Source: an uncultured virus (IMG/VR IMGVR_UViG_3300032770_000008)
Taxonomy: Duplodnaviria > Heunggongvirae > Uroviricota > Caudoviricetes
Direction: 5' to 3' (one strand)
DNA length: 57,516 nucleotides
IMG/VR virus record: IMGVR_UViG_3300032770_000008
This document shows, piece after piece, positions 2 to 20,411 of the stretch. The position numbers were made by a program, and so were the translations under genes. The notes under the pieces were generated by a model, which was not told where the DNA came from, ran no database searches, and worked only from the letters and a program-made list of their open reading frames with translations. The first letter of the stretch is position 1, and the number at the start of each line of letters is the position of its first letter.

Positions 2-595
2 GCGTGGGCGCGGCAAGATCGCCACCTCCAGGCGTGGAGCGAGCACCAGCGCGACCGGCTGATCGCGCACCGGCGCGAGGTGTGGCGCGTGATCGCCGCC
101 GAGATCGCGCGGACGTACTCGACGATCCTGATCGAGGACGGCCGCAACGCGAACCAGACGATGCGCCTGCCGGAGATCGAGGGCTGGGAGCGGCCCGCGC
201 CCGAAGACGGCGATCCGTCGGACGGGCGCGACCAGCGGCGGACGAACCGCCTGGTCGCCCCCGGCGAGCTCCGCGACGCGATCGTCAAGGCGGCCCACAA
301 GACCGGCGCGAAGATCGAAGTCGAGCGCAGCGCGGGAACGACGAAGGAATGCGCGCGCTGCGGCCACACGCAGGAGCACGTCGACTTCCGCGCGCAGATC
401 ACGTATCGCTGCGAGGGCTGCGGGGCGATCGACGATCAGGACGCCAACGCGTGCCGGAACCTGCTCAAGCGACACGGGATCGCGGGCGGCCCGGTGCCGC
501 CGCGCGCGCCCAAGGTGCTCGCGCCGGCGAAGAGGCCGCCGGAGCTCGGCAATCACGGAGCGTCACACGCGGCAGAGACGTTCGCCGCGCCGTAG
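2..595 (+). CDS. cas12: Type V CRISPR effector, C-terminal part (Cas12m/V-U1-like, TnpB-derived RuvC + zinc finger); 5' end lies outside the window
   Basis: Frame is open from base 2: AWARQDRHLQAWSEHQRDRLIAHRREVWRVIAAEIARTYSTILIED (bridge helix + RuvC-II), APGELRDAI, TTKECARCG...YRCEGCG (zinc finger), DQDANACRNL (RuvC-III). Stop codon is 63 bp before a CRISPR array. Confidence 0.88.
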   Translation, partial: AWARQDRHLQAWSEHQRDRLIAHRREVWRVIAAEIARTYSTILIEDGRNANQTMRLPEIEGWERPAPEDGDPSDGRDQRRTNRLVAPGELRDAIVKAAHKTGAKIEVERSAGTTKECARCGHTQEHVDFRAQITYRCEGCGAIDDQDANACRNLLKRHGIAGGPVPPRAPKVLAPAKRPPELGNHGASHAAETFAAP

Positions 596-622
596 CGCGG
601 CAGGTGCTCGCGATCGGAGCTG

Positions 623-658
623 TATGATCGCGGCGTGACAACTGAATAGGATACTACT
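623..658 (+). promoter_or_regulatory. Short CRISPR leader / putative array promoter
   Basis: AT-richer patch with TATGAT (623-628) and TAGGAT (647-652); the latter ends 6 nt before repeat 1. Confidence 0.4.
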
Positions 659-1495
659 GTGATCGTGACTGCTCGGCAGGCTGACTGCCGAGACAAGGTG
701 ATGGCGTTCGCCGTGGAGGTCAACTTCCGCGAGTGATCGTGACTGCTCGGCAGGCTGACTGCCGAGACCGGCGAACTGCTCGGGCGCCGCGTACGCTGGC
801 GTTCGTGATCGTGACTGCTCGGCAGGCTGACTGCCGAGACGCATCGATGGTTCCGGTGTCGCGAAGCAGGAGCAAGGTGATCGTGACTGCTCGGCAGGCT
901 GACTGCCGAGACTCCAGTTTCGCGTTGCTGACGCCCGTGGCGACGAAGCCGTGATCGTGACTGCTCGGCAGGCTGACTGCCGAGACTATCCTGGCCGAAC
1001 GGGCGGCCCTCGTATCGATCCCGTGATCGTGACTGCTCGGCAGGCTGACTGCCGAGACAAACACCAAGCTGGCTAGAATTCGATTCTTAGGGGCGTGATC
1101 GTGACTGCTCGGCAGGCTGACTGCCGAGACTTCGGCGGCTTCGCGGCAAGGTCCCTGGCCGCTTTCGGTGATCGTGACTGCTCGGCAGGCTGACTGCCGA
1201 GACGGCGATCCATGTTAGCGCACGGTCGACGAGCCCAGGCGTGATCGTGACTGCTCGGCAGGCTGACTGCCGAGACGCAAGAACGGCTTGCCGCGCCGCG
1301 GGGTCTCGGCGGCGAGTGATCGTGACTGCTCGGCAGGCTGACTGCCGAGACCCCTGGGGACCCTCGAGCACAAGAACCGTGTCGAGTGATCGTGACTGCT
1401 CGGCAGGCTGACTGCCGAGACGCGTCTTGGAGGGGTAGGAATCCTCGTCGAGAGACATTGTGATCGTGACTGCTCGGCAGGCTGACTGCCGAGAC
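659..1495 (+). CRISPR. CRISPR array: 12 identical 36-bp repeats GTGATCGTGACTGCTCGGCAGGCTGACTGCCGAGAC with 11 unique spacers of 34-39 nt
   Basis: Repeats start at 659, 733, 805, 877, 951, 1023, 1095, 1168, 1241, 1316, 1386 and 1460. Each has the hairpin CTCGGCAG-GCTGA-CTGCCGAG. Orientation is inferred from the upstream effector, trailer-end decay and G-U compatible variants. Confidence 0.98.
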
Positions 1496-1710
1496 TTGCC
1501 AGGTCCGTCGCCCCCGTTCTCGGCGAGCTGACTGCCGAAACCGGCCGCCGGCCGTGCGTGTGGTGCTCATGATCGTACTTGTTCGGTGAGTTGATCGCCG
1601 AGACAGTGGGACCTTCCGCAGATCGTAGTTGCTCGGCGAACTGACTGCCGAGACGCAGAGTGGTCGATTGCACGTAAATCGCACTTGCTCGGCGTATTGA
1701 CTGCCGAGAC
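1496..1710 (+). CRISPR. Four diverged trailer repeats separated by short spacers
   Basis: Partial repeat at about 1516-1541; full-length variants at 1569-1604, 1619-1654 and 1675-1710; intervening segments about 20, 27, 14 and 20 nt. Confidence 0.9.
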
Positions 1711-1738: not shown

Positions 1739-1984
1739 CTACGCGATCGCGTCCTGGCCGTGCAGCCAGAGCGATCGCACGTACTCGCTCGGCCAGCCGG
1801 CGAGGATCATCTCCCAGCACGCGCGTATCCGATCGTAGTACGCCTGCGCCGCATTCTCCTCGCGCGCCGTGCGGGGGCGCGACAGCCACGGTTCGGCGCG
1901 GTGCTCCACAATCGCGAGCTCATCGCTCGAGCGGAGCTCGATCCGATCGCGGCCGCGCAAGAGCGGGACGATGTCGATCGTCAC
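1739..1984 (-). CDS. Hypothetical protein (81 aa)
   Basis: GTG start overlaps the stop of the upstream gene (GTGA); protein-like composition. Confidence 0.6.
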   Translation of the reverse strand: MTIDIVPLLRGRDRIELRSSDELAIVEHRAEPWLSRPRTAREENAAQAYYDRIRACWEMILAGWPSEYVRSLWLHGQDAIA

Positions 1985-2553
1985 CGGGCCTCGACGAGCG
2001 CGACGCCGGCCGCGGCGAGCCGCTCGGCCTGCCTCGGGAAGTGCCGCGGGAACGCCGCGAGCATCGCCTCGGCCGTGTGATCGCCGGCGACGATGAAGCA
2101 CGAGTTGCAGTTGCTACGGGTATCGCCCTGCGTGCGATCCCACCACGACAAGATCGTGTAGAGCTCCTCGTCGAGCTTCTCGATCGAGCGCGCGAACTGT
2201 CCCTGCGGCAGCTCGTCGGAAGCGTACTCGAGCCTCTGGCGATCCTCCGCGCGCGGCACGAGTCCGACGCGCACGAGATGTCCCGTTCCGCGGTGCCGCC
2301 GCGGCGCGTAGCCACCGTCGAGCCGTAGCCGCTCGAGCGGCGAATCGTCGGCGTGCCGACCGCGCCGGTTAAACAGATAATGCCCAGCCTGGAGCCAGCA
2401 GCCGTGCCACCAGGAACGCGCATCGTCCGCGATCGGCGCGCCAGGCGGATGCTCGGACAGCCACCACGCCTCGAAGGTGTCCGAGACGCCCTCGCGCGCG
2501 GCAAACCACGCGCGCCGCGCGAGCTCGCGTTCCTGATCGAGCCTCGTCGTCAC
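1981..2553 (-). CDS. Hypothetical protein (190 aa)
   Basis: Long ORF in the minus-strand run; Trp-rich, natural composition. Confidence 0.7.
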   Translation of the reverse strand: MTTRLDQERELARRAWFAAREGVSDTFEAWWLSEHPPGAPIADDARSWWHGCWLQAGHYLFNRRGRHADDSPLERLRLDGGYAPRRHRGTGHLVRVGLVPRAEDRQRLEYASDELPQGQFARSIEKLDEELYTILSWWDRTQGDTRSNCNSCFIVAGDHTAEAMLAAFPRHFPRQAERLAAAGVALVEAR

Positions 2554-2557
2554 CGCG

Positions 2558-2872
2558 TCACCGCGAGTCCCCCGCGAACAAGATCTTGCCGTCCACGATC
2601 TCGATGTGCATCGCGCACCGATCGTGGTCTCCCGGGACCCGGCGGATGCTCGGTGAGATCGTCATCGTCGCGAAATCATCGCCGCTCCTCTCCCAGATCG
2701 CGCCGCTCGCCGGCGCCCACGCGGTCCCGTCGCGCGTGGGCGTGAACGGAATCGTGTGGTGGCAGTCCGCGTGGCCTTCGGGACAGTCGAACGTGAGGTA
2801 GCGATCGGCGCGCTCGCCGTAGTAGGTGCCCCAGCGCGGGTTGCAGTCGATGAGGCGCGTCATGCGCGGCAT
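2558..2872 (-). CDS. DUF6527-like Cys/His small protein
   Basis: FDCPEGH..CHH...WERSGDDFATMTISPSI...CAMHIEIVDG pattern; ATG coupled to upstream TGA. Confidence 0.65.
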   Translation of the reverse strand: MPRMTRLIDCNPRWGTYYGERADRYLTFDCPEGHADCHHTIPFTPTRDGTAWAPASGAIWERSGDDFATMTISPSIRRVPGDHDRCAMHIEIVDGKILFAGDSR

Positions 2873-3087
2873 CAGTTGCCCTCTCGGCGGATCTTCGCCT
2901 CGGCGGCGAGATCGAGGATCGACTTGCCGCCGACGCGCGCGCCGCAGTGCGAGCACTGTCCGTCGACGTCGAAGCTGTGACCCCGCGCGGCGACGCAGCC
3001 GAGCCAGCGATCGACGGCCTCTGTCTTCGACGGATCGCCGCCGGCGGAGGCGATCGTGATCGCGAGCAGGCGACGCAGCGCGGACAT
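2872..3087 (-). CDS. Small zinc-finger hypothetical protein
   Basis: C...GH...CSHC motif; coupled to radA stop. Confidence 0.6.
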   Translation of the reverse strand: MSALRRLLAITIASAGGDPSKTEAVDRWLGCVAARGHSFDVDGQCSHCGARVGGKSILDLAAEAKIRREGN

Positions 3088-3983
3088 CAGTGAAACGGCT
3101 CCTCGTCCCAGCCGTCTTCATCCATCGGCTCGAGGCCCTCCGATCCCATGACGAAGTAGCCGCGCGACGTGGTGGCACCGAAGCGATTCTTGGTCGCGCG
3201 CAAGATCCGTTCGGCGCCCGCGCGTCGCGCGCCGACCTCGAGATCGAGCACGACATCGACGAGATGCCCGAGCGTCGCGGGTCCCGCGAGCAGACCCTCC
3301 TTGTCGACGTGACCGATGAGCCAGGTCGTGATGCCCTCGCCCTTGGCGAACTCGACGATCCGGCGCACGCTCTCGCGCGACTGCGCCGGCGATCCGGGAT
3401 ATCCCTTGACGTCCGAGGCCACGAGCGTGTGGATCGAGTCGATCACGATGACGCGCGGCTTGAGCGCGCGGGCATGCGCGATGATCTTGTCGACGTCTGT
3501 CTCGGCGGCCGGGTAGATCTTCCGGCTCGTCGCGCCGACGCGGTGCGCGCGCGGCGCGATCTGCTCGATCGATTCTTCCCCCGTCGCATACAGCGCCCGG
3601 AGATCGAGACCGGCGAGCATCTGCATCGCGAGCGTCGACTTGCCGGCCCCGGCCTGCGCGCTGATCACGACGACCGATCCGATGACGAGCCCGCCTCCCA
3701 GGACCGCGTCGAGCGGCGCCAGATTCGTCGGATCCCGCGGGTGATCGATCACCGTGATCTCGGAGAGCGGGACGAGCTTGGGAGGCTCTTCTGCGACGGG
3801 ATCTTCGAGATCCTCGTCGCGCCGCGGCGCGGGGACGGCCACGAGCTTCGGCACTGGCGGCGCCGACTCCTCCCGGAGCTCGAGATCGAACGCCTGGCAG
3901 CGCGTGCAGCGCGCCTGCCATGCGGCATGCGCGTAGCCGCACGCGCGACAGACGTAGCGGCGAGCTCGCGCGACGTCGCTCAC
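3087..3983 (-). CDS. radA: RadA/Sms-like ATPase lacking the C-terminal Lon-like domain
   Basis: N-terminal C4 zinc finger (CRACG...CTRC), Walker A AGAGKST, TGEES, Walker B VIVIDSI, GHVDKEG.LAGP, KNRFG; only 298 aa. Confidence 0.9.
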   Translation of the reverse strand: MSDVARARRYVCRACGYAHAAWQARCTRCQAFDLELREESAPPVPKLVAVPAPRRDEDLEDPVAEEPPKLVPLSEITVIDHPRDPTNLAPLDAVLGGGLVIGSVVVISAQAGAGKSTLAMQMLAGLDLRALYATGEESIEQIAPRAHRVGATSRKIYPAAETDVDKIIAHARALKPRVIVIDSIHTLVASDVKGYPGSPAQSRESVRRIVEFAKGEGITTWLIGHVDKEGLLAGPATLGHLVDVVLDLEVGARRAGAERILRATKNRFGATTSRGYFVMGSEGLEPMDEDGWDEEPFH

Positions 3984-4558
3984 TCGTCCCCCGCGGGCGC
4001 CGTGAGATCGACGGTCTGATATCCGTCCGTCGCCGGCGAGCCGAGCGGCACGATGCGGATCATTTCCTTCTTGCGCCGATCCTTGTCGACCTGGACCTCA
4101 TAGAGCGGCCAGCGATTGAACCAGCGCCACCATCCGAACGGCACGAAGTCCGCGCCGGGCGGGCGCGTGCGCGGCGCGATCACCGCATCACGCACGGGAT
4201 CCGCGCCGAGGTGTTCGAGGATCTTGTCGAGCATCACGACGTGCTTCTCGGACGGCACGCGCTCGTCTCGTCGCGTCGCGTGTAGGACCCACCAGAGCTG
4301 GCCACCCTCCTTGTACATGGACGCCTGGATCTTCCAGCCATAGATCTCGACCGGCTCCCAGAGGAGTTTCCGCTCGTCGGGCGGCACGCGATCGATCTCT
4401 TCCTGGAGCCCGCTGCCGTCGCCGGTCCGAACCGCGCGCGCGAAGAGTTCGAGCAGCCGCATGAGCCCCGGGGGGAGCTCCTGGGCCATCTGATGACCGG
4501 CGGACAAGATCGTCATCTTGAGACGATCTGCCTTCTTCTTCCAGCCGAGCTCGATCAT
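3980..4558 (-). CDS. Hypothetical protein (192 aa)
   Basis: ATGA-coupled start MIELGWKKK; natural composition. Confidence 0.7.
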   Translation of the reverse strand: MIELGWKKKADRLKMTILSAGHQMAQELPPGLMRLLELFARAVRTGDGSGLQEEIDRVPPDERKLLWEPVEIYGWKIQASMYKEGGQLWWVLHATRRDERVPSEKHVVMLDKILEHLGADPVRDAVIAPRTRPPGADFVPFGWWRWFNRWPLYEVQVDKDRRKKEMIRIVPLGSPATDGYQTVDLTAPAGDE

Positions 4559-4947
4559 GGCGTGGCTCCGCGCGCCCAGGGTTCGAGATCCGGCACGCCC
4601 TCGATCACGACGTTGTGGTGCCAAATCGACGTCTCCGTCGGATGCTCGCCATCGTGCACGGTACCTGACGTGAGCACGTTGATCGACGGCACGACATTCC
4701 ACGCGCCCTCGCGCGTGGCCGGCTGGAGCGCCCACGTCTTGCCGCCGGGACCGTCGGCATCGTAGGTCCCGCGCGGATTCACTGGCACGGCCGCGCAGAG
4801 CGCCTCGCCGCCGGCGTCCGGGATCACCCGGAACCACAGGAGCCACCACGATCGCCCCGCGCCATCACCAGCGCGGTGCATCGTGCAATCGCCGACGTTG
4901 AGCGCGTCGACGTCGATCAAGCCGCGGTATTGGAGAATGCTAGCCAT
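4555..4947 (-). CDS. Hypothetical protein, DUF6527-like C-terminus
   Basis: TWAL...WNVVPSINV...WH; TAACCT -10 box 8 nt upstream of the ATG. Confidence 0.6.
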   Translation of the reverse strand: MASILQYRGLIDVDALNVGDCTMHRAGDGAGRSWWLLWFRVIPDAGGEALCAAVPVNPRGTYDADGPGGKTWALQPATREGAWNVVPSINVLTSGTVHDGEHPTETSIWHHNVVIEGVPDLEPWARGATP

Positions 4948-4978
4948 GGGGAAATAGGTTACTTCGGGCAGCTGACGA

Positions 4979-5728
4979 TCAACATCGGCGAAGAATCGAT
5001 CGTTGAAGCACCCCGTGGTAGCCGCGCGAGAGGATCGACCCCCCACCGGCTCCGCAGGTCACGCCGACCTTGTCGACGGTGACGAGCTCGCCCCGGCTCG
5101 GATCCCCGTGCGCGCACCAGCAGCGGTGGCGCCGATCTTCTTTTCTGTCGCAGTTGTTCGCGCGCGACATGACGTCCCACGATCCGCCGTGCGGGAGCAC
5201 GACGTTCAAATGCGGCTCGGAGCAATCGTCCCAATACCAGCACGCACCCGTCTTGTCGTCGTGCGTCCACGTCGAGTGGAAGCAGTCGCCCGGCGACATC
5301 GCGCGCTCCTCGACGATCGTCCGATCCGGAGCCTCGTAGAGCCGGCTATGAAACACCTGGAAGGCATGCGACGGCAGCCCTGCCGGCCGCGCGGCGCCGC
5401 ACGCGTCACAGTGATCCGGCCAGCACTGCGCCGGATGGTCGCTCGGATCGCCGCCGAGCTCGAAATCTTCGATGCGGTCGGAATCGGCGAGATGAATCAC
5501 ACCGTCGTGATAACCACGATCGCCGCACGCGCCATCGCCGTCCCAGAAAACGCGCAGAACGGCGCGCGTACCCACCTCGCGCAGGTAGCGAAGCGGGATA
5601 TTCTGATCGAGCGGATCGATAGGATCGTTGATGATCGAAGGCGCCGGCGGTGGAGCTGTGATCATGGGCGGGGACGCGGGCGAACGCGCGAGCGGCGCGC
5701 GTCGCGATCGGAGGACGACATCGGTCAT
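4979..5728 (-). CDS. Cys/His-rich phage-type protein, DUF6527-related
   Basis: WPDHCDACG; WDVMSRANNC...HRCWCAHG...TCGAGGGSI...YHGVL; ATGA-coupled start. Confidence 0.65.
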   Translation of the reverse strand: MTDVVLRSRRAPLARSPASPPMITAPPPAPSIINDPIDPLDQNIPLRYLREVGTRAVLRVFWDGDGACGDRGYHDGVIHLADSDRIEDFELGGDPSDHPAQCWPDHCDACGAARPAGLPSHAFQVFHSRLYEAPDRTIVEERAMSPGDCFHSTWTHDDKTGACWYWDDCSEPHLNVVLPHGGSWDVMSRANNCDRKEDRRHRCWCAHGDPSRGELVTVDKVGVTCGAGGGSILSRGYHGVLQRSILRRC

Positions 5729-6048
5729 CGTCCAGTACCCGAAAGAGCCGTCGCCGACAGCAGGTCCGGCTCGTCTGGTAGAGCAATCGCGGCGACGGAA
5801 CCACACGCCTCTGCCTGCCACGCGGTCACGAGAACCGAGCAGTCGATCACCGGTGCGCAGCGGCCATCCTTCATCCGGCCCCATCCCTCGGCGCACGGCG
5901 AGAGCGGCGATTCCGATCGGCCGAACACGCGCATCGCGAGCACGAGAGACAGCGCGCACGCGATCGTGAGCAGCCCCGTCGCGCCGAGAAGGAAGAAGAT
6001 CCACTCGCGTCGACGATCGCGCGGTTTGACGACCTCACGGCAGAGCAT
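5725..6048 (-). CDS. Membrane-anchored Cys-containing protein
   Basis: Hydrophobic segment WIFFLLGATGLLTIACALSLVLAM followed by four Cys. Confidence 0.5.
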   Translation of the reverse strand: MLCREVVKPRDRRREWIFFLLGATGLLTIACALSLVLAMRVFGRSESPLSPCAEGWGRMKDGRCAPVIDCSVLVTAWQAEACGSVAAIALPDEPDLLSATALSGTGR

Positions 6049-6337
6049 GCGGACACCTTCGCTCGAGCTGATCACCGATCCGTTCGAGCGCGCGCGCCTG
6101 GCGGTAGCTGAACGATTGACCGACGAGCCCCATGACGGTCGCCGCGACGCCGAGGCCGCCGACGATCGCGCCAATGATGAGCTGGCGACGCATCCGCCGG
6201 CGCATCGAATCTTCAGATCTCGCCTTGGGCAGCACGATCCCAGCCGCGCGCGCGGCCTCCTCCTGGTCGTGCAAGATCGCCTGCGCGCGCAAGAGTGTCT
6301 CGTGATCCTCGGGGGAGATCGACGGCAATTCCGGCAC
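6035..6337 (-). CDS. Single-TM membrane protein
   Basis: RRRMRRQ followed by LIIGAIVGGLGVAATVMGLVG. Confidence 0.6.
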   Translation of the reverse strand: MPELPSISPEDHETLLRAQAILHDQEEAARAAGIVLPKARSEDSMRRRMRRQLIIGAIVGGLGVAATVMGLVGQSFSYRQARALERIGDQLERRCPHALP

Positions 6338-6486
6338 GATCCAGATCTACCACTCGGCGGGGCAGATCTCTCCCTCTTGACGATCCAGGCGATCTCGTCG
6401 ATCCTACGATCTGCTTGAGCGGCGCCATGCCAAAGAACCGCTCGCCGGCACCCCGATGGACAAGCCTCCCGCCGGGTTAGCCGGTC

Positions 6487-6777
6487 TTATGCCGCGTTCG
6501 GCTCGCGGCTCGCGACGTCGTGCAGATACTCGAGATCGACGCCGGCGAGCTCGGCGTACCGCGTGATCTTCGTCCGATCGCCCGCGAGCGCCTCGGCGTA
6601 GTAGCCCGCCGCGAGCGCGACGTGCGCGAAGCGCGCGACGGCCGCCAGATCATCGAGATCCGCGAGTGCCACGCTCGCGAGCGACCGATCGCGGGGCGTG
6701 GCCGACGTGCGCACGAGCAAAAGCCCACTCGTGGTGAGGTTCGCCTCGATGTTCCGGCGACGCGTGACGATCAACAT
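6487..6777 (-). CDS. Hypothetical protein (96 aa)
   Basis: GAGG RBS; natural composition. Confidence 0.6.
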   Translation of the reverse strand: MLIVTRRRNIEANLTTSGLLLVRTSATPRDRSLASVALADLDDLAAVARFAHVALAAGYYAEALAGDRTKITRYAELAGVDLEYLHDVASREPNAA

Positions 6778-6781
6778 GCCC

Positions 6782-7267
6782 TCATCGTCGCAGGCGCGTC
6801 TGACGTCGCCGCGCGATCCCGAGGCCGATCCCGATGCCCAACCCCACGAGCAGGAGCGCGCCGCCGAAGCCGATACCAGAGCTCGGAGCCGCCGGCGCCG
6901 GCGCTACCTTCGCGCGCGCGGCATCGAACGCCCGGATGGCCTCCTCCTGCGACAAGCGATCGTCGAGCGCCAGCTGCTCGAGCGCGGCCTGCCAACCGAC
7001 CTGCGCGCCGGCCAAGAACACGGCGCCCTCGCGCCCTTCGCGCGCCTCCTTGAGACGCGGCAGGATCTCGTCGAGGAAGCGCTTGCGCCGGACCGCGCGC
7101 GCGACGGTGTCCTCGCCGGCGATCTCGGGGAACAGCGCCAGGCCCTGAACCAGATCAACGATCTGGTAACCCGGCCACTGCGCTCCGCCGCCACCTCGAT
7201 CGATCTTGACGAGCGGCAGGACGGCTGGAACGACGTTCTGATTGTTCGCGATCAGGGGGACGAGCAT
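6782..7267 (-). CDS. C-terminally anchored membrane protein, paralog 1
   Basis: Near-identical N-terminus to the adjacent gene; C-terminal TM plus basic tail. Confidence 0.8.
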   Translation of the reverse strand: MLVPLIANNQNVVPAVLPLVKIDRGGGGAQWPGYQIVDLVQGLALFPEIAGEDTVARAVRRKRFLDEILPRLKEAREGREGAVFLAGAQVGWQAALEQLALDDRLSQEEAIRAFDAARAKVAPAPAAPSSGIGFGGALLLVGLGIGIGLGIARRRQTRLRR

Positions 7268-7272
7268 CGGCC

Positions 7273-7719
7273 CTATCCCTTGCTTCGCGCGCGAAAGAGG
7301 AGCGCCACGATCGCGATCGCGCCGACGACCGCGAGCGCCGTACCGAGTCCCGACGGGCGCGCCGCCGCGGCGCGCGCCTCGGCCGCACGAGCTCGTGCCT
7401 CGGCAGACGCCGTCCGTGCCTCGAACTCCTCGAGCTGCGCGAACTGACCGACCTGGATACCGGCGAGGAAGGCCGCGGCGCGCTGGCGCTCGCGGGCGTC
7501 GCGGATCGCGGGCAGTGCTTCATCGAGCCAGCGCGCGCGGCGCACGGCGCGCGAGACAGCATCTTCGCCGGCGATCTCGGGGAAGAGCGCGATCGCGGCG
7601 GAGATGTCGACGATCTCGTAGCCGGGCCAGCGCCGACCACCGCCGCCTCGATCGATTTTCACGAGCGGCAGCGACGCCGGAACGACGTTCTGATTGTTCG
7701 CGATCAGCGGAAGAAGCAC
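7273..7719 (-). CDS. C-terminally anchored membrane protein, paralog 2
   Basis: PLIANNQNVVPA.LPLVKIDRGGGG..WPGY...ALFPEIAGED shared with paralog 1; TAGAAT 9 nt upstream. Confidence 0.8.
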   Translation of the reverse strand: MLLPLIANNQNVVPASLPLVKIDRGGGGRRWPGYEIVDISAAIALFPEIAGEDAVSRAVRRARWLDEALPAIRDARERQRAAAFLAGIQVGQFAQLEEFEARTASAEARARAAEARAAAARPSGLGTALAVVGAIAIVALLFRARSKG

Positions 7720-7757
7720 GTTTCGTCGATTCTACCGCCACCGCGGCAAGATCGCGA

Positions 7758-8531
7758 TCACGCGTCGCCCGGAGGAGCGGGCGCCTCGCACTTGCACAGA
7801 CTCATCATGATCACGCCGGGTTTCGTCGGATGCTCGACGTGCTTGTACAGATCGCCGCAGATCGGGCAGCGTTCGGGCACGCCCGGCGGTGAGATGAATC
7901 GGATCTTCGGTGATGCCTCGGGACGATTTCGCGTCATCGCGACCACGCGGGCCTCCTCCGGCGCGATCTCGAGCTTCGGCGGGGGGACCGCCTTCTTTCT
8001 CGCGACCGTCTCGGCCACTGCCGCCACATCGTCGCGCAAGCACCGCTCGGCGCCGTGCCGGTAGCCGGGGTCGGTCGGGTGTCCGCACGCGCATGGCCGC
8101 GCCTCGTCGGCGGCTCCGGTGGCGCGGATGATCCGCGGATTCGCAGGCGGTGGTGGCGGCAGGGGCAGAGGTCGCCGCTGCGCGCATCGCGCGGATCCGT
8201 GCTCGAAGTCCTCCGCACCCGGATTTCCGCACGCGCAGGGTCGCGCGACGATCGGAGCCTCTTCGACGCGCGCCGCCAATCGCCGCGTCGCCGCCGCGGT
8301 AAAAAAGTCGGCGTCGAAGGCGATCACGTCGACGATCCCGACCACACCGGAGCTCGATACGAGCATCCGCACGTCGACGCACTTCATGCGCCGGCGCTTC
8401 GTCGGATCCTCGATCCCCGAGATCCACAGGTCGTCGCCGAACCCGACCGGAACGCGATCGACCGACGCCAGATCGACGCGGACGGCTCGCGCCCCCGCCG
8501 CATCGAGAATCTCTTCGACGACGAGCCGCAT
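7758..8531 (-). CDS. Hypothetical protein with repeated C-x-C...H...C metal-binding motifs
   Basis: ARPCACG...HG..RC occurs twice, plus CPICG...CKC; TAAACT 7 nt upstream of the ATG. Confidence 0.65.
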   Translation of the reverse strand: MRLVVEEILDAAGARAVRVDLASVDRVPVGFGDDLWISGIEDPTKRRRMKCVDVRMLVSSSGVVGIVDVIAFDADFFTAAATRRLAARVEEAPIVARPCACGNPGAEDFEHGSARCAQRRPLPLPPPPPANPRIIRATGAADEARPCACGHPTDPGYRHGAERCLRDDVAAVAETVARKKAVPPPKLEIAPEEARVVAMTRNRPEASPKIRFISPPGVPERCPICGDLYKHVEHPTKPGVIMMSLCKCEAPAPPGDA

Positions 8532-8541
8532 GGCAAGAAGT

Positions 8542-9369
8542 TTACGCCGGAGTCGCGGCCGGCGCCGGTAACGCGAGACCCGGCTCCGGCAGATCGAGCA
8601 TGTCGGGCTTGACCGCCTTGAGCCGGACGACCCAGTCCACGATCGCGTTCCAGCTCTCGTTGAACATCCTCTGCTGCACCTCCGCGGCGCGCGCATTCAT
8701 GTCCGTCATCACGGTCGGATCGATCTTGCCGTCGAAGTCGCAGCGCACGTTGTAGTGATCGAGCTTGTTCACGTCGCGAAACTTCTTGAACAGGTAGAAG
8801 AAGGCTTCCGCGGGATAGAAGCGCCGGTGCGTCGGATCCTGAAACGCGCGGTTGTTGCGCAGGCACGGCACGACGACCGACATCCACGCTCCCGGCGCCA
8901 GGATGCGATGACACTCGTCGAAGAAGGCGAAGAAGAGATCCTTGGCGCCCGGCGTGCCGCATGAGACCTCGTTGCCCGAGGCGTCGACATAGATCATCGG
9001 CAGATGCTCGACGAAATGCGAGCAATTCAGCTCGACGACGGAGCTGTCCGCCCAGGGCCACGGGAAACGCGTGAGGTTGACCTCGTGCTTGATGCTCTTG
9101 CGTGCCTTCTCGAGCGCGGCCAGCTGCGTGAGCTCCTCGCCCGTGCGATCGGGCTTGTCGCGCAGCCTGGCGATCTCGCCGTCGAGGTAGACGCCGATGC
9201 CGGGGATGTCGACACCCTCGAAGCCCTCCTTGCAGCTCTGCCCGCACGCGAGATCGAGCTTGAGCTTGGGTGCGGGACGCGCGAGCTGCGGCTTGGGAGC
9301 CGCCGGGGATTTCTTGACCGTCTTGGCCGCGAGATCGCGGCGCTGCTTCTTCGCTTGCTTTCCGCTCAT
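8542..9369 (-). CDS. Class I SAM-dependent methyltransferase (sugar-associated type)
   Basis: LDLACG, HFVEHL, ECHRILAPG, DPTH motifs. Confidence 0.85.
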   Translation of the reverse strand: MSGKQAKKQRRDLAAKTVKKSPAAPKPQLARPAPKLKLDLACGQSCKEGFEGVDIPGIGVYLDGEIARLRDKPDRTGEELTQLAALEKARKSIKHEVNLTRFPWPWADSSVVELNCSHFVEHLPMIYVDASGNEVSCGTPGAKDLFFAFFDECHRILAPGAWMSVVVPCLRNNRAFQDPTHRRFYPAEAFFYLFKKFRDVNKLDHYNVRCDFDGKIDPTVMTDMNARAAEVQQRMFNESWNAIVDWVVRLKAVKPDMLDLPEPGLALPAPAATPA

Positions 9370-9379
9370 GAGGATTCTC

Positions 9380-10453
9380 CTAGAGACCGAGCCACGTGGG
9401 ATTGTCGAGGTACCAGCGCACGGTTTTCTCGAGCGACTGCTCGAGCATCATCGGGCGTTTCCAGCCGAGCTGCCCGATGAGCTCGTCTTTCATCGCGTAG
9501 CGGAGATCATGCCCGGGGCGGGAGGCGTGCCACGACACGAGCTCGCAGTGGAGCGGCTTGCCGACGAAGCCGGCGATCATCTGCGCGAGGTCGAGATTCG
9601 AGATTTCGCGCTCGCCGCAGACGTGGATCTTGCGCGGCATGTCTTCGACGATGAGAGTGCGCTCGCCGGCGGGGCGCGAGCTGGAAGCCCCAGCGTCGAG
9701 GCGCATCAAGAACGCGAGCGCGTGCGCGAACGTCCGGCAGTGCAGGTAGAACCTCGTGCCAGAGCGCGTCTGCGTCGGATCCGCGTGGATGGTCATCACC
9801 TCGCCGCGCAGCGCAGCGCGAATGCACTTCGGCACCATTTTTTCGAAATGTTGCCTCTCGCCTACGAGGTTCATCGTATTGACGATCGTGATGGGCAATC
9901 GGTACGTGTTCGCGTAGCTCAGCGCGACGCACTCGCCACTGGCCTTCGCGGCCGCGTAGGGATTCGCCGGCCGGAATGGCGCGTGCTCATCGAAGCCGGC
10001 GACGTCGTCGCCGAACGCGGCGGGGCCGTAGACCTCGTCGGTGCTCACGAGGAAAGCGCGACGCAGCGACGGAAGCGATCGCAGCCACCAGAGCAGGTGA
10101 TGCGTGCCGATCACGTTCGAATGGAAGAACGGTAGTGGATCGATGATCGAATTATCGACGTGCGTCTCCGCAGCCGCGTGGATCACGTAGTCGATCGCGC
10201 CGATCTCGCGCACGACTCCCTCCGGGATCGGCTGCGAGAGATCACAGCCGAGCACGCGGACGCGCCGATCGTCGTACGCCTGGATGTCGCGCAGGCGATC
10301 GAAGCCGGCTGACGCGTAGGTCATCTTGTCGAGCACGACGAGATCGGCGTCGGTGCTCTTGAGGAAATGCTCGACGAGGTGCGAACCGAGGAAGCCGCAG
10401 CCTCCCGTGATGAGAATGCGCATGCCGCCGTATGTACCCGAGACGTACGACAT
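9380..10453 (-). CDS. rfbB: dTDP/NDP-glucose 4,6-dehydratase
   Basis: ITGGCGFLG, DKMTYAS, HAAAETHVD, STDEVYG, PYAAAK, RPGHDLRYA; alternative start at 10423. Confidence 0.9.
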   Translation of the reverse strand: MSYVSGTYGGMRILITGGCGFLGSHLVEHFLKSTDADLVVLDKMTYASAGFDRLRDIQAYDDRRVRVLGCDLSQPIPEGVVREIGAIDYVIHAAAETHVDNSIIDPLPFFHSNVIGTHHLLWWLRSLPSLRRAFLVSTDEVYGPAAFGDDVAGFDEHAPFRPANPYAAAKASGECVALSYANTYRLPITIVNTMNLVGERQHFEKMVPKCIRAALRGEVMTIHADPTQTRSGTRFYLHCRTFAHALAFLMRLDAGASSSRPAGERTLIVEDMPRKIHVCGEREISNLDLAQMIAGFVGKPLHCELVSWHASRPGHDLRYAMKDELIGQLGWKRPMMLEQSLEKTVRWYLDNPTWLGL

Positions 10454-10460
10454 CGAGCGG

Positions 10461-10820
10461 CTAGTAGTTCCCCGCCTTGGTGATCGCGCCGACCAGCGCG
10501 GACGCCATCTCGTTCGCGAGCGCGTCCCGGTTGGTGAGCATCTTCTCGAACGCCGCGGCGGCGAGCTCGCGCATGCGCGCACGGATCTCGTCGGTCGCGA
10601 TCATCTCCCGCACGACCTCGCGTGCGAGGTCGAGAACCGCGCCCTCGAACGCGAGATGGATCTCGGTCTTGCCCTGGCTATAGCCGTAGGTGCCAGATTG
10701 CTTCGGCGCCACGAGCGCCGCGAGCGCGGCGCGGATCAGCTCTTCCTTCTTCTTGTCGTCGAGCGCCTTGTACATCGCCTCGACAACAAGGGCCTTCATG
10801 GTGGTGTCTTCGGTAGTCAC
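10461..10820 (-). CDS. Hypothetical helical protein (119 aa)
   Basis: GGAG RBS; fits gene packing. Confidence 0.7.
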   Translation of the reverse strand: MTTEDTTMKALVVEAMYKALDDKKKEELIRAALAALVAPKQSGTYGYSQGKTEIHLAFEGAVLDLAREVVREMIATDEIRARMRELAAAAFEKMLTNRDALANEMASALVGAITKAGNY

Positions 10821-10829
10821 ATCGCGCTC

Positions 10830-11663
10830 CTAGTAGACGATGTTTGAAGAGAAGTCTAAATGCCCCACCCTCACGCGAAGGTCCACGGCGAAGCGTTTCC
10901 CCGCGCGCTTGGCCTTCTCCGCGAAAAATAAATCCTGCGTGAAGCCCTGCACTCCCTTGCCCGGTACGATGTCATTCACCGTCACGAACCACGGCGGCTC
11001 GATCTGCTTGAACAGATCGAGTCGGTAGAGCGAACACCCCATGGCGATACCGTTGCACTCGACGACGCGATTGCCGGCGGCGAGCGACGCGCGGATGTCC
11101 CGCGGACGGAACTCGAGCTCGCCAGTCTGTCGGTAGTGCTCGGGATCGCCGTAGCACATGGGCTGCTGGATATCACCCTTCGTGAAGTAGATCCCGGAGA
11201 CACCGTCGAGTCCGAACTCCTCGATCGATTCGAGCAGTCGGATATGCGCGTCGGGCGGCTGGATGTTGTCCGACTCCATCGTCATGACGTACTTCCACGT
11301 CGACAGCTGCGGATCTTTCAAAATGTTCTGGATCGTCGTCGTGTACGCTTTGCCGACCTCGTCATTGATCACGTACAGAAACGCGCGCTTCTGATTCATC
11401 GGTGCGATCAGGTTCTGCCAGCTGTTGACCACCCGGTAGTGGAACTTGTCGTCGCGCGACGGCACGATGATGATCGTCGAGCTATCGCGATAGGTCGCGC
11501 CCGAATACTTCTTCACGCGCTCGAAGCCTAGGCCACTGAGCGCACCCTCGAGCGCCGCGGATCCCTCGATCCACTGCGGAGCTCCCACGGAGGGCACCGC
11601 GCCGCGAAGCATCGCCGGCGATCGCCGCGCACTCTTGGCCGCGCCGCGCGTCTTCTTCTTCAT
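10830..11663 (-). CDS. GT-A fold glycosyltransferase (family 2-like)
   Basis: YVMTMESDN, GVSGIYF, GIAMGCSL, PPWF, QDLFFAEKA...VDLRVRVGH; ATGA-coupled. Confidence 0.8.
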   Translation of the reverse strand: MKKKTRGAAKSARRSPAMLRGAVPSVGAPQWIEGSAALEGALSGLGFERVKKYSGATYRDSSTIIIVPSRDDKFHYRVVNSWQNLIAPMNQKRAFLYVINDEVGKAYTTTIQNILKDPQLSTWKYVMTMESDNIQPPDAHIRLLESIEEFGLDGVSGIYFTKGDIQQPMCYGDPEHYRQTGELEFRPRDIRASLAAGNRVVECNGIAMGCSLYRLDLFKQIEPPWFVTVNDIVPGKGVQGFTQDLFFAEKAKRAGKRFAVDLRVRVGHLDFSSNIVY

Positions 11664-11824
11664 CGCGTCTTCTTCCTCGCGGCCTCGGCCGCATCGGCGA
11701 CCCAGCCTCGGATCACGTGCTGGTACGGAATCGCCAGGCGCTTGCCCTCGTCGCGAGCTCGCCGCACGTCGGCCACGCGCAGTCGGATCGTGATGCGCTC
11801 CAGAGAGATCGGCTCGCGCGGCAT
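11660..11824 (-). CDS. CopG/BrnA-like ribbon-helix-helix protein
   Basis: ITIRL...RRA...IPYQHVIRGW pattern in 54 aa. Confidence 0.75.
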   Translation of the reverse strand: MPREPISLERITIRLRVADVRRARDEGKRLAIPYQHVIRGWVADAAEAARKKTR

Positions 11825-11829
11825 CGTTA

Positions 11830-11878
11830 TTGACGATGTACATCCGCCGCGCGTACGGTTGCAATCGCGCGATCGCAA
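11830..11878 (+). promoter_or_regulatory. Divergent promoter region with a 20-bp near-palindrome
   Basis: TTGACG(11830)-N18-TACGGT(11854); TTGCAATCGCGCGATCGCAA at 11859-11878. Confidence 0.45.
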
Positions 11879-11906
11879 ACAATCGACGCGAGGAGATCTC
11901 CCCCGA

Positions 11907-12188
11907 ATGCCGATCGTAAATTACAAGGGTCCCCCGGGCTACGTCGGCGTCCTCCAGCACCTCGTTGGCGAGAAGATCGAGAAGGCATTCGTCGACGGAT
12001 CGGGCGCGCTCTGGTTGGTCGTGGGTAGTGGCCACGCGTTCGTGATCGCAGCGTACAACGGCAACGCGGAGGCGCCGTTCTGGACGGTGTCTCCGCCCGA
12101 CGTCGAGCGTCAAATCGTCGAGCGTCGCCGCGAGCTCCAGAAGAAGATCCAGGAGCTCAAGAACCTCGCGCCGGGCGTGGACGTCTAG
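11907..12188 (+). CDS. Hypothetical protein (93 aa) with C-terminal coiled coil
   Basis: AGGAG RBS; fills the gap between minus-strand genes; convergent with 12195. Confidence 0.75.
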   Translation: MPIVNYKGPPGYVGVLQHLVGEKIEKAFVDGSGALWLVVGSGHAFVIAAYNGNAEAPFWTVSPPDVERQIVERRRELQKKIQELKNLAPGVDV

Positions 12189-12194
12189 GGATCC

Positions 12195-14954: not shown

Positions 14955-14957
14955 GCG

Positions 14958-16531: not shown

Positions 16532-16535
16532 CGAT

Positions 16536-17162
16536 CTAGACTCCCGCCAGGAAGAGCGCGTAGGCGCGGTGGAGCACCGACTGCGTGACCACCGAGCTAC
16601 CGCTCATGCCGAACGATACGCCGTTGGAATTCGAAAACTCAATCGTCCCTGACGATCCCGTCTGCGATCCCGCCGCGATCGCGACACCGCCGCCGCCCGC
16701 GTTCACGCTCGCTGTGACCGTGTTGCCGTTGACCCCGAAGGTCACGTTGTTCGAGTTCGAGAAAACGACCGTCCCGCTCGTCGCCTGCGTGGTGCCTGCG
16801 GAGATCGCGGCGATGCCGGCGGAAGCGCCGGCGACCGATGCGGTGATCGTCGAGCCATTCATCCCGAACGTCACGCCGTTCGAGTTGGAAAATACGAGCT
16901 GCCCGTTGCTCGCGAGCGTGGTGCCCGCGGAGATCGCCGTAATGAGGCCGATCGTCCCGTTGGCGTCTGGAATGACGACGGTCTGCTGACCCGTCGCGTT
17001 CGACGCGGCCAGATAGATCGCGCTCGCCCCGGCCGGATCCTGCGCGAATACGATCGACTTCGAACCCGCATCGGATCCGATCTGGATCTGCTCGCCGAGG
17101 ATGGACAGCGTAGCCTGGTTGAGCTGTACGACGTCTTGTAGGTTCGACTGGGAAAACGGCAT
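16536..17162 (-). CDS. SNSN-repeat protein without the C-terminal head
   Basis: Three repeats; N-terminus duplicated from 17215-18537. Confidence 0.75.
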   Translation of the reverse strand: MPFSQSNLQDVVQLNQATLSILGEQIQIGSDAGSKSIVFAQDPAGASAIYLAASNATGQQTVVIPDANGTIGLITAISAGTTLASNGQLVFSNSNGVTFGMNGSTITASVAGASAGIAAISAGTTQATSGTVVFSNSNNVTFGVNGNTVTASVNAGGGGVAIAAGSQTGSSGTIEFSNSNGVSFGMSGSSVVTQSVLHRAYALFLAGV

Positions 17163-19443: not shown

Positions 19444-19452
19444 CGGCCGCCT

Positions 19453-20409: not shown

Positions 20410-20411
20410 CT

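What the first reader, a model, noticed from the sequence alone, without database searches (positions are those of the whole stretch)
2..1495. Virus-borne minimal type V system: Cas12m-like effector directly abutting its own array
Seen: RuvC-II (IED), C4 zinc finger and RuvC-III (DQDANA), with the array 63 bp after the stop and no cas1/cas2/cas4 anywhere downstream. Knowledge: the W..QDRHL..W..H.RD.LI..RR..WR..AA helix and a GTG...hairpin...AGAC 36-mer recall Cas12m (V-U1), which binds DNA and silences rather than cuts. RuvC-II here keeps the canonical Glu, so the protein could be a cleavage-competent relative. Inference: the virus uses it against competing elements or host genes and borrows the host adaptation machinery.
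Basis: partly seen in the sequence, partly recalled or inferred. Interest (0 to 1): 0.75.

Follow-up and report, generated by a model that had tools for sequence, protein, structure and literature searches.

The report
Phage-borne Cas12m CRISPR locus
The window opens inside the gene for a small RNA-guided DNA-binding CRISPR protein (Cas12m) that is followed at once by its own guide array on what is probably a large phage; this is a real but already described kind of system.

Summary
Window 2-595 encodes the last 197 residues of a 655-aa protein (P0001). 63 nt after its stop lie 12 identical 36-nt repeats with 11 unique spacers (659-1495), then four decayed repeats (1506-1710). The full protein matches solved Cas12m structures by sequence (TfCas12m, 23vw_A, E 3.9e-59; MmCas12m2 1e-25; TnpB only 0.28) and by predicted fold (8hhl_A, Foldseek E 4e-30). 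It is therefore a type V-M effector, not an IS605 TnpB. Its RuvC triad is D332/E503/D605. None of the 125 window ORFs scanned is Cas1, Cas2 or Cas4. The element is probably a tailed phage: it has fibre-like paralogs with viral look-alikes, a related contig carries a tail-spike gene, and most ORFs are orphans. No capsid, portal or terminase gene lies in the window. The suggestion that the enzyme cuts DNA is weak: published D-E-D Cas12m enzymes, including the closest solved relative, bind but do not cut. Virus- and plasmid-borne V-M loci are already in print, and a GenBank phage carries the same layout. No spacer target was found. One detail I did not find in the papers read: a leader motif, TGACAACTGAAT, lies exactly 11 nt before repeat 1 in all 7 loci compared.

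The parts
2..595 (+). 3' end of cas12m: the last 197 codons plus the TAG stop of a 655-aa protein (P0001)
   Evidence: Open frame. It is 100% identical to the C-terminus of P0001 from the window's own 119,516-bp contig. P0001 matches Cas12m chains in the PDB, and its model matches the Cas12m2 and GoCas12m structures.
134..136 (+). RuvC-II glutamate codon (E503 of P0001)
   Evidence: Aligns with the E of the LEEF motif in 23vw_A and with the D of LVDD in MmCas12m2. This column is E in 34, G in 5 and A in 1 of 40 relatives.
350..421 (+). C4 zinc finger of the TNB domain (C575, C578, C595, C598)
   Evidence: Pfam PF07282 Cas12f1-like_TNB, E 6.4e-10 on the fragment. C575, C578 and C595 are invariant and C598 nearly invariant in alignment A1.
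440..442 (+). RuvC-III aspartate codon (D605, in DQDANA)
   Evidence: D603 and D605 are present in 40 of 40 relatives. They align with DQDYNA of 23vw_A.
596..658 (+). 63-nt leader with a hairpin (609-632) and the conserved motif TGACAACTGAAT (636-647), which ends 11 nt before repeat 1
   Evidence: The motif and its 11-nt spacing are shared by 7 of 7 loci aligned: window, L001, L027, L028, L029, L035 and L038. The consensus scan found no sigma-70 promoter or terminator.
659..1495 (+). CRISPR array: 12 identical 36-nt repeats and 11 unique spacers of 34-39 nt
   Evidence: The repeat RNA folds into a 13-nt 5' tail, an 8-bp stem with a 5-nt loop, and a 3' AC: -15.9 kcal/mol, z -3.4. The stem covaries across 13 related repeats.
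1506..1710 (+). Trailer: four decayed repeats with shortened spacers (10, 27, 14, 20 nt)
   Evidence: The covariance model of the repeats scores three of them at 21.8-23.6 bits, against 34.7 bits for the intact copies.
1739..57365 (-). Context: a long, nearly one-stranded block of mostly orphan genes that converges on the array. It includes seven fibre-like paralogs (12195-19443), a 700-aa fibre-motif protein (22797-24899), lysozyme-like ORFs (38210-39856), sugar-modification genes and a RadA-like ATPase (3087-3983).
   Evidence: The nearest ESM Atlas clusters to the 440-aa paralog are 87-97% viral.

Best explanation
This is a type V-M (Cas12m) CRISPR locus carried by a probable large tailed phage or prophage. 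Transcription on the + strand runs from the leader into the array. By analogy with characterised Cas12m enzymes, the protein trims the transcript itself into crRNAs: a 5' repeat-derived handle whose 3' hairpin it grips, followed by a guide. The 655-aa effector then binds PAM-flanked complementary double-stranded DNA tightly without cutting it. That blocks transcription or replication of the target, most likely a competing phage or plasmid and possibly a host gene. New spacers, if any are still acquired, must come through an adaptation module encoded elsewhere. Shown here: family membership, the array, the repeat fold, and the absence of adaptation genes in the window. Inferred: the RNA processing, binding without cutting, the targets, and the viral carrier.
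For: Family. P0001 against PDB sequences gave 23vw_A 'DNA-binding protein Cas12m' at E 3.9e-59 over residues 13-614, MmCas12m2 at 1e-25, GoCas12m (8pm4) at 2.9e-25 and UnCas12m4a at 1.4e-18; TnpB chains scored 0.28. The AlphaFold model (pLDDT 83, pTM 0.67) is closest to 8hhl_A (E 4.2e-30, TM 0.60/0.65) and 8pm4_A (6.4e-28). Cas12f comes next at E 2.8e-11 and TM 0.38.

Array. Twelve perfect repeats start 63 nt after the stop. In 13 related repeats the 6-bp core stem is paired in 98.7% of cells, with changes on both sides at 5 of 6 pairs; the covariation score is 0.778 against 0.222 in shuffles, reached by 0 of 500. Of 45 related loci, 20 have an array starting no more than 231 nt after the protein match.

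Binding rather than cutting. 23vw_A is identical, over the stretches printed, to the TfCas12m sequence in the supplement of PMC11013384. That paper reports no dsDNA cleavage by D-E-D, H-D-D or N-D-D variants, and TfCas12m interfered only at the ori. Converting H-D-D to D-E-D did not restore cutting in Cas12m2 (PMC10442227, passage). Within the window's own clade the triad has repeatedly been lost: N-G-D in 12 and N-E-D in 5 of 142 sequences. One N-G-D member, L001, still carries a 20-repeat array.

Carrier. The nearest ESM Atlas clusters to the fibre-like paralog score 0.98, 0.92 and 0.91 and are 87-97% viral. L026 has a Cas12m 56% identical to this one and shares five more genes with the window; it carries a tail-spike hit, phrog_4636 at 1.4e-14. 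Relatives occur on 5 IMG/VR contigs and in GenBank phage KX853510.1.
Against: No protospacer was found, so neither the targets nor a PAM are known.

The D-E-D triad is kept in 104 of 142 family members. That argues for selection on metal binding or on some catalysis, and this protein has not been assayed.

No capsid, portal or terminase gene was recognised in 57.5 kb. tblastn of two fibre-like proteins against 50,697 phage records found nothing. The window shares almost nothing with the five IMG/VR contigs that carry relatives.

V-M systems are described as strongly enriched on plasmids (PMC11656645, passage).

No promoter was detected by the consensus scan.

In this clade the repeat lacks the second (pseudoknot) stem seen in characterised Cas12m crRNAs: stem I is paired in only 56% of cells overall and is unpaired in the window's repeat.
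Confidence: 0.75

Rival explanations
1. One reading: a cleavage-competent Cas12m relative. With an intact D-E-D RuvC site the effector cuts or nicks target DNA instead of only sitting on it.
For: The triad is D332/E503/D605. D-E-D is conserved in 104 of 142 relatives. Omura et al. (PMC10442227, passage) proposed that the D-E-D clades 3 and 4 might hydrolyse DNA. The 2026 preprint on MvCas12m also suggests nuclease activity from the same residues.
Against: Four D-E-D Cas12m variants were tested and none cleaved dsDNA. Purified MsCas12m (D-E-D) cut neither DNA nor RNA, in cis or in trans. TfCas12m, the closest solved relative, interfered only at the ori (PMC11013384). Its PDB entry is titled 'DNA-binding protein'. 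Catalytic residues were lost repeatedly in array-bearing members of the same clade.
Confidence: 0.12
2. The locus is not on a virus. The contig is a plasmid, or a bacterial chromosome in which the Cas12m locus lies beside rather than inside a prophage or orphan-gene island.
For: No virion hallmark gene lies in the window. V-M is described as strongly enriched in plasmids (PMC11656645). Close relatives lie on contigs of 128-461 kb. cas12m and the array are on the opposite strand from the rest of the window and sit at its edge.
Against: None of the 125 ORFs scanned matched a Tra, Mob, Rep or partition family or a housekeeping family. The minus-strand genes run to within 29 nt of the last decayed repeat, so there is no room for an attachment site or integrase there. 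Other evidence against: the fibre-like paralogs with viral look-alikes, the related contig L026 with a tail-spike hit, and the phage-type, orphan-rich flanks of the large-contig relatives, which include PAPS reductase, RNA ligase, Lar and a phrog_1967 helicase.
Confidence: 0.18
3. A self-regulating system: the guides act on the element's own genes as a programmable repressor rather than on competitors.
For: Other reports of this scan describe phage Cas12m arrays with perfect matches to the phage's own genome (these are unchecked leads). A binding-only effector makes self-targeting tolerable.
Against: None of the 11 spacers, nor 3 remnants from the decayed zone, matches the rest of the window. 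The best hits are 13 of 36 and 17 of 38 nt, at E 0.12 or worse. Outside the array only one weak repeat-like hairpin was found (39474-39510, 22 bits), and it is probably chance.
Confidence: 0.06
4. An IS200/IS605-type TnpB with an omegaRNA, so a transposon rather than a CRISPR system.
For: Pfam, PHROGs and source annotations label the family 'transposase'. There are weak NCBIfam TnpB hits.
Against: The NCBIfam TnpB hit scores 41.4 bits against a cut-off of 100. PDB TnpB chains score E 0.28 against 1e-59 for Cas12m. TM-scores to TnpB structures are 0.31-0.34. The protein is 655 aa and is followed by a true array with 11 different spacers, not a single guide at a transposon end. No TnpA was found in the window.
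Confidence: 0.01

Closest known systems
TfCas12m (Thermanaerosceptrum fracticalcis; PDB 23vw; Bigelyte et al. 2024, PMC11013384)
   Same: It is the best sequence match among solved structures: E 3.9e-59 over residues 13-614. It has the D-E-D triad (D306/E459/D550), a single crRNA from an adjacent array, and no adaptation genes.
   Different: It is 567 aa and bacterial, against 655 aa here. P0001 has extra length, including a conserved Pro/acid-rich loop after RuvC-II (506-532, pLDDT below 50) and a 40-residue C-terminal tail. The function of P0001 has not been assayed.
MmCas12m2 and GoCas12m (PDB 8hhl/8hio, 8pm4)
   Same: The same bilobed fold: Foldseek E 4e-30 and 6e-28, TM about 0.6. Both use 36-nt repeat-derived handles ending in a 3' hairpin and silence targets by binding.
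   Different: Both have an H-D-D triad, and sequence identity in the structural alignment is only 21-23%. Stem I of the crRNA (described for PmCas12m) is not formed by the window's repeat.
MvCas12m of myxophage MV-1 (bioRxiv 10.64898/2026.09.14.751636; passages read)
   Same: Phage-encoded Cas12m with D-E-D residues, an adjacent array, no cas1/cas2/cas4, no tracrRNA and no spacer targets found.
   Different: It is 610 aa with 8 spacers, against 655 aa with 11 spacers here, and it comes from a temperate phage in a MAG.
Virus Rctr197k, GenBank KX853510.1 (Caudoviricetes, 197 kb)
   Same: An intact 622-aa Cas12m (23vw_A E 9.9e-85) is followed 34 nt later by about 20 repeats of 36 nt with the same tail-hairpin-GAC design, decaying distally. 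A TTGACAAC motif lies just upstream of repeat 1.
   Different: Only 28.8% identical to P0001 and on a different branch of the tree. It is annotated only as 'similar to transposase' plus 'CRISPR'.
IMG/VR contig G001 (locus L001)
   Same: It is the nearest viral-catalogue relative (51% identity). It has an array of about 20 repeats 135 nt downstream, the same leader motif at the same 11-nt distance, and a phage replication module upstream.
   Different: Its triad is N-G-D. Some spacers are only 14-25 nt. It shares almost no other genes with the window.

Membership tests
CRISPR-Cas type V-M (Cas12m) | Full-length sequence similarity to characterised Cas12m effectors, clearly above that to TnpB, Cas12f or other Cas12 subtypes | tested here: met
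   Cas12m chains score E 3.9e-59 to 1.4e-18. The next hits are Fanzor at 3.8e-4, Cas12f at 0.14-0.6 and TnpB at 0.28.
CRISPR-Cas type V-M (Cas12m) | Cas12m fold: compact bilobed protein with WED/REC lobes and a RuvC domain interrupted by a zinc-finger TNB domain | tested here: met
   The model has pLDDT 83. The top four Foldseek hits are all Cas12m structures at E 4e-30 to 8e-24. PF07282 matches residues 548-612. The CxxC...CxxC motif is present. Individual domains were not delimited.
CRISPR-Cas type V-M (Cas12m) | Adjacent CRISPR array with roughly 36-nt repeats bearing a 3' hairpin, on the same strand as the gene; crRNA only, no tracrRNA | tested here: met
   Array. Fold. Covariation. No reverse-strand copy of the repeat (anti-repeat) with 3 or fewer mismatches in 25 nt occurs anywhere in the window. 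Upstream DNA is unseen, so absence of a tracrRNA is shown only for the window.
CRISPR-Cas type V-M (Cas12m) | No adaptation module (cas1, cas2, cas4) in the locus | tested here: met
   No such family matched 125 window ORFs or 125 flanking ORFs of 7 related loci. The region upstream of cas12m is not available here.
CRISPR-Cas type V-M (Cas12m) | RNA-guided, PAM-dependent dsDNA binding without target cleavage | not testable with these tools
   Rests on published assays of orthologs (PMC11013384, PMC10442227). No protospacer was found, so no PAM can be inferred.
CRISPR-Cas type V-M (Cas12m) | RuvC triad of one of the described Cas12m clades (clades 3 and 4: DED, NED, DND) | tested here: met
   The triad is D332/E503/D605. 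The clade definitions come from a passage of PMC10442227. Placement in a named clade was not tested, because no reference sequences of those clades were held.
IS200/IS605 TnpB | Reaches the curated TnpB family scores, is about 400 aa, and has a single omegaRNA at a transposon end, often with TnpA nearby | tested here: not met
   NCBIfam scores: NF040570 41.4 bits against a cut-off of 100, IS607_TnpB 33.6 against 350, IS200_TnpB 25.4 against 425. The protein is 655 aa, is followed by a multi-spacer array, and no TnpA was found in the window.
Cas12f (type V-F) | Effector of 400-550 aa similar to Cas12f/Cas14, dependent on a tracrRNA | tested here: not met
   PDB Cas12f chains score E 0.14-0.64. 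TM-scores are 0.31-0.38. No anti-repeat occurs in the window.

The most novel reading that the evidence does not exclude
The window belongs to a Cas12m clade that lives mainly on large soil and wetland phages. Its arrays carry a dedicated, strictly positioned leader element: TGACAACTGAAT exactly 11 nt before repeat 1, preceded by a hairpin. That element would serve as the docking site through which a host Cas1-Cas2, or an unknown phage factor, adds spacers in trans. The conserved D-E-D site would be kept for a catalytic task other than target cutting, such as guide maturation or nicking. If so, this would be a phage-adapted V-M variant with its own acquisition logic.
Probability: 0.12. Interest if true: 0.6.

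Novelty: new member of a known kind. Interest (0 to 1): 0.3.

Why it matters
The locus adds one more natural, compact (655-aa) D-E-D Cas12m with an 11-spacer array on a probable large phage. Together with its relatives it suggests that non-cutting CRISPR systems are a recurring weapon of phages against rival mobile DNA.

The practical value is modest: another ortholog for CRISPRi and base-editor scaffolds.

The conserved leader motif with fixed spacing gives a concrete handle on an open question for V-M systems, namely how arrays that lack cas1 and cas2 are transcribed and how they gain spacers.

Tried and rejected
Own genome: none is held. The contig's upstream 62 kb could not be reached.

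Searches for the window's own record or close relatives:
- The exact repeat in viral contigs gave 0 hits.
- Single-protein locus searches in viral, metagenome and genome collections found no relative.
- The alignment-based scan of genome contigs also found none, so no named host genome was found.

Spacer targets:
- The 11 spacers and 3 remnants from the decayed zone against the window and 5 IMG/VR contigs gave only 12-14-nt exact runs and one 17-nt match with a mismatch.
- The array against 50,697 phage records gave no match at E up to 1.
- Against 72,556 plasmids it gave 8 weak hits, best E 2e-4, some spanning repeat-spacer borders; I judged these noise.
- Against all fetched loci the best was 19 of 20 aligned nt of spacer 2 in L026, E 0.004.
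- The first 24 nt of 4 of the 11 spacers, searched exactly in viral contigs, gave 0 hits each. The other 7 were not scanned.
- 213 spacers from relatives gave no credible match in the window (part of that output was cut).

Other checks:
- Rfam on 1-2500 gave only a sub-threshold fluoride-riboswitch hit.
- The promoter and terminator scan of 400-2100 found none.
- Viral hallmarks: a PHROGs rescan of 28 large ORFs at E up to 1 gave nothing usable. tblastn of two fibre-like proteins against phages found nothing. The Atlas hit for the 40674-41786 ORF scored only 0.86, which is a lead only.
- Named Cas12m references (Tf, Mm, Un) were not among the 239 stored proteins, so the tree carries no named clade labels.
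- A search for 'Cas12m4a' in the paper library returned 0 papers.
- Sequencing runs: no RNA holder is listed. Contigs of run X1 skip 801 nt of the array between identical repeats, most likely an assembly collapse and not evidence of a short-array variant.
- Earlier scan notes for this genome or look-alikes of P0001: none.
Full report
WHAT IS THERE

The + strand is open in frame 2 from base 2 to a TAG at 593-595. A word-indexed protein search returned a 655-aa protein, P0001. It is 100% identical over the fragment and comes from the window's own contig of 119,516 bp. The missing N-terminus could therefore be read even though the upstream DNA could not: no genome is held.

Sixty-three nt after the stop, twelve identical 36-nt repeats (GTGATCGTGACTGCTCGGCAGGCTGACTGCCGAGAC) alternate with eleven different spacers of 34-39 nt, at 659-1495. 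Four progressively decayed repeats with shortened spacers follow, to 1710. A 25-nt part of the repeat occurs 13 times in the window against 0.00 expected. The decay at the far end and the AT-richer 63-nt stretch next to the gene place the leader on the cas12m side. The array is therefore read on the same strand as the gene.

WHAT THE PROTEIN IS

By sequence. Against all PDB chain sequences, P0001 matches 23vw_A ('CRISPR-associated DNA-binding protein Cas12m') at E 3.9e-59 over residues 13-614. It also matches MmCas12m2 (8hio/8hhl, 1e-25), GoCas12m (8pm4, 2.9e-25) and UnCas12m4a (23vu, 1.4e-18). Cas12f chains score 0.14-0.6 and TnpB 0.28.

By fold. An AlphaFold2 model built on a 40-sequence alignment has mean pLDDT 83 and pTM 0.67. 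It is closest to Cas12m2 and GoCas12m (Foldseek E 4.2e-30 and 6.4e-28, TM about 0.6). Cas12f follows at E 2.8e-11 or weaker (TM up to 0.38), and TnpB at TM 0.31-0.34.

By curated models. NCBIfam's TnpB models are hit far below their cut-offs: 41 bits against 100.

The protein is a Cas12m.

THE ACTIVE SITE

The alignments place RuvC-I at D332 (AIDLGWR; MmCas12m2 has H there). They place RuvC-II at E503 (LIED; Mm has D) and RuvC-III at D605 (DQDANA). The choice of D605 rather than D603 rests on my recollection of the D-x-N-A register in TnpB and Cas12f. The triad is therefore canonical D-E-D.

Among 40 close relatives the three columns read D 32 / N 8, then E 34 / G 5 / A 1, then D 40. I also built a 142-sequence set. 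It holds proteins of at least 560 aa from P0002-P0094, every fourth of P0095-P0235, 26 ORFs from fetched loci, P0001 and the Rctr197k protein; shorter proteins and the other representatives were left out. In that set the triads are DED 104, NGD 12, NED 5, NDD 4, DAD 3, DKD 2, HDD 2, NAD 2 and eight singletons.

DOES D-E-D MEAN IT CUTS?

The literature says probably not. 23vw_A is identical, over the stretches printed, to TfCas12m in the supplement of Bigelyte et al. 2024 (PMC11013384), which lists it as D306/E459/D550. I read passages of the main text and parts of the supplement. They report the following:
- Eight variants were tested: four D-E-D, two H-D-D and two N-D-D. None cleaved dsDNA.
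- Six bound DNA in a PAM-dependent way.
- Purified MsCas12m (D-E-D) cut neither DNA nor RNA.
- TfCas12m interfered with a plasmid only when aimed at the ori.

Omura et al. 2023 (PMC10442227, passages) note that converting H-D-D to D-E-D did not restore cutting in Cas12m2, while leaving open that clades 3 and 4 might hydrolyse DNA.

In my tree the window's protein sits, with P0004 as sister (support 1.00), inside a large mostly D-E-D clade that has lost catalytic residues several times. One N-G-D member, L001 on an IMG/VR contig, keeps a 20-repeat array.

Against this, the wide retention of D-E-D argues that the site is under selection for something, perhaps metal-mediated strand binding. I put cutting at about 0.12.

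THE crRNA

The repeat folds into a 13-nt 5' tail, an 8-bp stem with a 5-nt loop, and a 3' AC: -15.9 kcal/mol, z -3.4. Repeats taken from 12 related loci align to it without gaps and all end in GAC.

The six core pairs of the stem are paired in 98.7% of cells, with changes on both sides at 5 of 6 pairs. The covariation score is 0.778 against 0.222 in shuffles (0 of 500 reach it) and at most 0.30 when the partners are slid.

The second stem described for PmCas12m (preprint 10.64898/2026.03.26.714355, passage) is paired in only 56% of cells. It is absent from the window's repeat and its nearest relatives, where the main stem is simply longer. No opposite-strand copy of the repeat exists in the window. 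Rfam has nothing for the region.

THE LAYOUT IS THE FAMILY NORM

Of 45 related loci (L001 plus 44 metagenome loci):
- 20 have an array starting no more than 231 nt after the end of the protein match.
- 4 have repeats 350-950 nt away.
- 9 with at least 1 kb of downstream DNA show none by my strict detector (an exact 16-mer in at least 3 copies).
- 12 end too close to the gene to tell.

None of 125 flanking ORFs in seven of these loci hits Cas1, Cas2 or Cas4 at E up to 1e-5. The same holds for the window's 125 ORFs. The lack of an adaptation module is typical of V-U/V-M systems (PMC11013384, introduction).

A CONSERVED LEADER

This detail was not mentioned in the papers I read. In all seven loci aligned (window, L001, L027, L028, L029, L035, L038; Cas12m identity to P0001 44-56%) the leader holds TGACAAC(T/A)GAAT ending exactly 11 nt before repeat 1. 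In the window it lies at 636-647. It is preceded in most loci by a hairpin whose sequence differs between loci; in the window the hairpin is at 609-632. The distant Rctr197k leader also has TTGACAAC just upstream of its array.

The motif could be a -35 element: it reads TTGACA in two loci, and 17 nt downstream lies a weak -10 formed by the leader-repeat junction. It could instead be a docking site for spacer integration. The consensus scan called no promoter, so both readings are inference.

IS THE CARRIER A VIRUS?

For a virus:
- Nearly all genes run on the minus strand, tightly packed, up to 29 nt from the last decayed repeat. Few of them match any family.
- Seven paralogs at 12195-19443 share repeats of the form ISAGTT..SG.VVFSNSNG.SFG. 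For the 440-aa member the three nearest ESM Atlas clusters score 0.98, 0.92 and 0.91 and are 87-97% viral, mostly Uroviricota; the structural neighbours are also mostly viral.
- The 700-aa ORF has a weak tail-fibre hit (phrog_11338, 4.9e-4).
- L026 is a 43.9-kb contig with a Cas12m 56% identical to this one. It shares five more genes with the window: AAA ATPase 54%, RadA-like 40%, a membrane protein 47%, the 236-aa ORF 44%, and the fibre C-terminus 40%. Its 705-aa ORF hits tail spike phrog_4636 at 1.4e-14.
- Flanks of relatives on contigs of 128-461 kb are also orphan-rich and carry phage-type genes.

Against a virus:
- No capsid, portal or terminase gene was recognised.
- There were no tblastn hits in 50,697 phage records for two fibre-like proteins.
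- The window shares little with the five IMG/VR contigs that carry relatives.

I estimate about 0.8 that the locus is on a phage or prophage.

TARGETS

No protospacer was found in the window, the fetched viral contigs, the phage records, the plasmids or IMG/VR. Only 4 of the 11 spacers were scanned in IMG/VR, and only as exact 24-mers. The targets, the PAM and any self-targeting on the unseen 62 kb remain open.

HOW NEW IS IT?

- Cas12m silencing is established (PMC10442227, PMC11013384).
- A 2024 review states that V-M is strongly enriched on plasmids and encoded by some prophages (PMC11656645, passage).
- Bigelyte's Table S2 already includes a D-E-D Cas12m from an IMG/VR record.
- A September 2026 preprint describes a myxophage Cas12m with the same minimal layout and claims the first phage case.
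- GenBank phage KX853510.1 carries an intact 622-aa Cas12m (23vw_A E 9.9e-85) followed 34 nt later by an annotated CRISPR; the gene is labelled only 'similar to transposase'.
- In my tree the viral-catalogue rows fall at four or more separate places, so viruses have acquired Cas12m repeatedly.
- This scan's own notes list many phage Cas12m arrays (unchecked leads). One describes a 461-kb element with two nested systems. That fits what I saw in L027: two Cas12-like genes and two repeat families.

VERDICT

The finding is a genuine new member of a known kind. Its only slightly unusual features are the conserved, strictly spaced leader motif and the single-hairpin repeat.

Noticed in passing
window 596-658; L001, L027, L028, L029, L035, L038 leaders: TGACAAC(T/A)GAAT ends exactly 11 nt before the first repeat in all 7 loci compared. 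In most it is preceded by a hairpin of varying sequence. It may be the array's -35 element or an integration docking site.
   Followed up: partly
window 12195-19443 (-): Seven tandem paralogs (208-440 aa, 28-73% identical to one another) carry repeats of the form ISAGTT..SG.VVFSNSNG.SFG and a shared C-terminal domain. Their nearest Atlas clusters are viral. They are probably a battery of alternative fibre or receptor-binding proteins.
   Followed up: partly
window 52875-54413 (-): This 512-aa ORF looks to me like a Cys-protease or transglutaminase-like protein interrupted by an intein. That rests on my own reading of its end motifs and on one weak NCBIfam intein hit, E 4.2e-4.
   Followed up: no
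window 39474-39510 (-): The covariance model of Cas12m repeats finds one extra repeat-like hairpin ending in GAC (22 bits, rough E 0.003) inside the lysozyme-like ORF. It resembles the repeats of other Cas12m loci more than the window's own and is probably chance.
   Followed up: partly
window 8542-12113 and 29030-35397 (-): Two sugar-modification blocks: a dTDP-glucose 4,6-dehydratase-like gene, a DegT/PseC-type aminotransferase, two paralogous glycosyltransferase-like genes (37.5% identical), a TOD1/MUCI70-like gene, methyltransferases and a GNAT (32224-32751). They suggest glycan decoration of virions or DNA.
   Followed up: no
window 27530-29029 (-); L026 12237-13685: An AAA ATPase most similar to the Pup-proteasome ATPase model (TIGR03689, E 4.6e-76, below its cut-off). 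It is 54% identical to a gene that lies directly after cas12m in L026, where no array was seen.
   Followed up: no
L001 (IMG/VR contig G001) 10001-13403: This viral Cas12m has an N-G-D triad yet carries about 20 repeats. Several spacers are only 14-25 nt, and one 24-nt spacer recurs within the array.
   Followed up: partly
L035/L037 spacer 1 against L004 1181-1201 (IMG/VR contig G004): The first spacer of this Cas12m array has a 21-nt exact match (E 3.9e-6) in a viral contig that itself encodes a distant Cas12m-like gene. It may be a real inter-element target.
   Followed up: no
L027 (461-kb contig) 3-1679 and 1988-8086: A second Cas12-like gene and a second repeat family (GGCACAATCGATGCGAGACCTCGCGGTGGTCTCGAC) lie just upstream of the cas12m homologous to the window's. 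The element therefore has two V-M-like systems side by side.
   Followed up: partly
window 6782-7267 and 7273-7719 (-): Two adjacent small orphan genes are 69% identical over 99 residues: a recent tandem duplication.
   Followed up: no
P0001 residues 506-532: A loop directly after RuvC-II is predicted disordered (pLDDT below 50). Its sequence (GWERPAPEDGDPSDGR.QRR) is nonetheless nearly invariant across the clade, so it may be a lid or a nucleic-acid contact.
   Followed up: no
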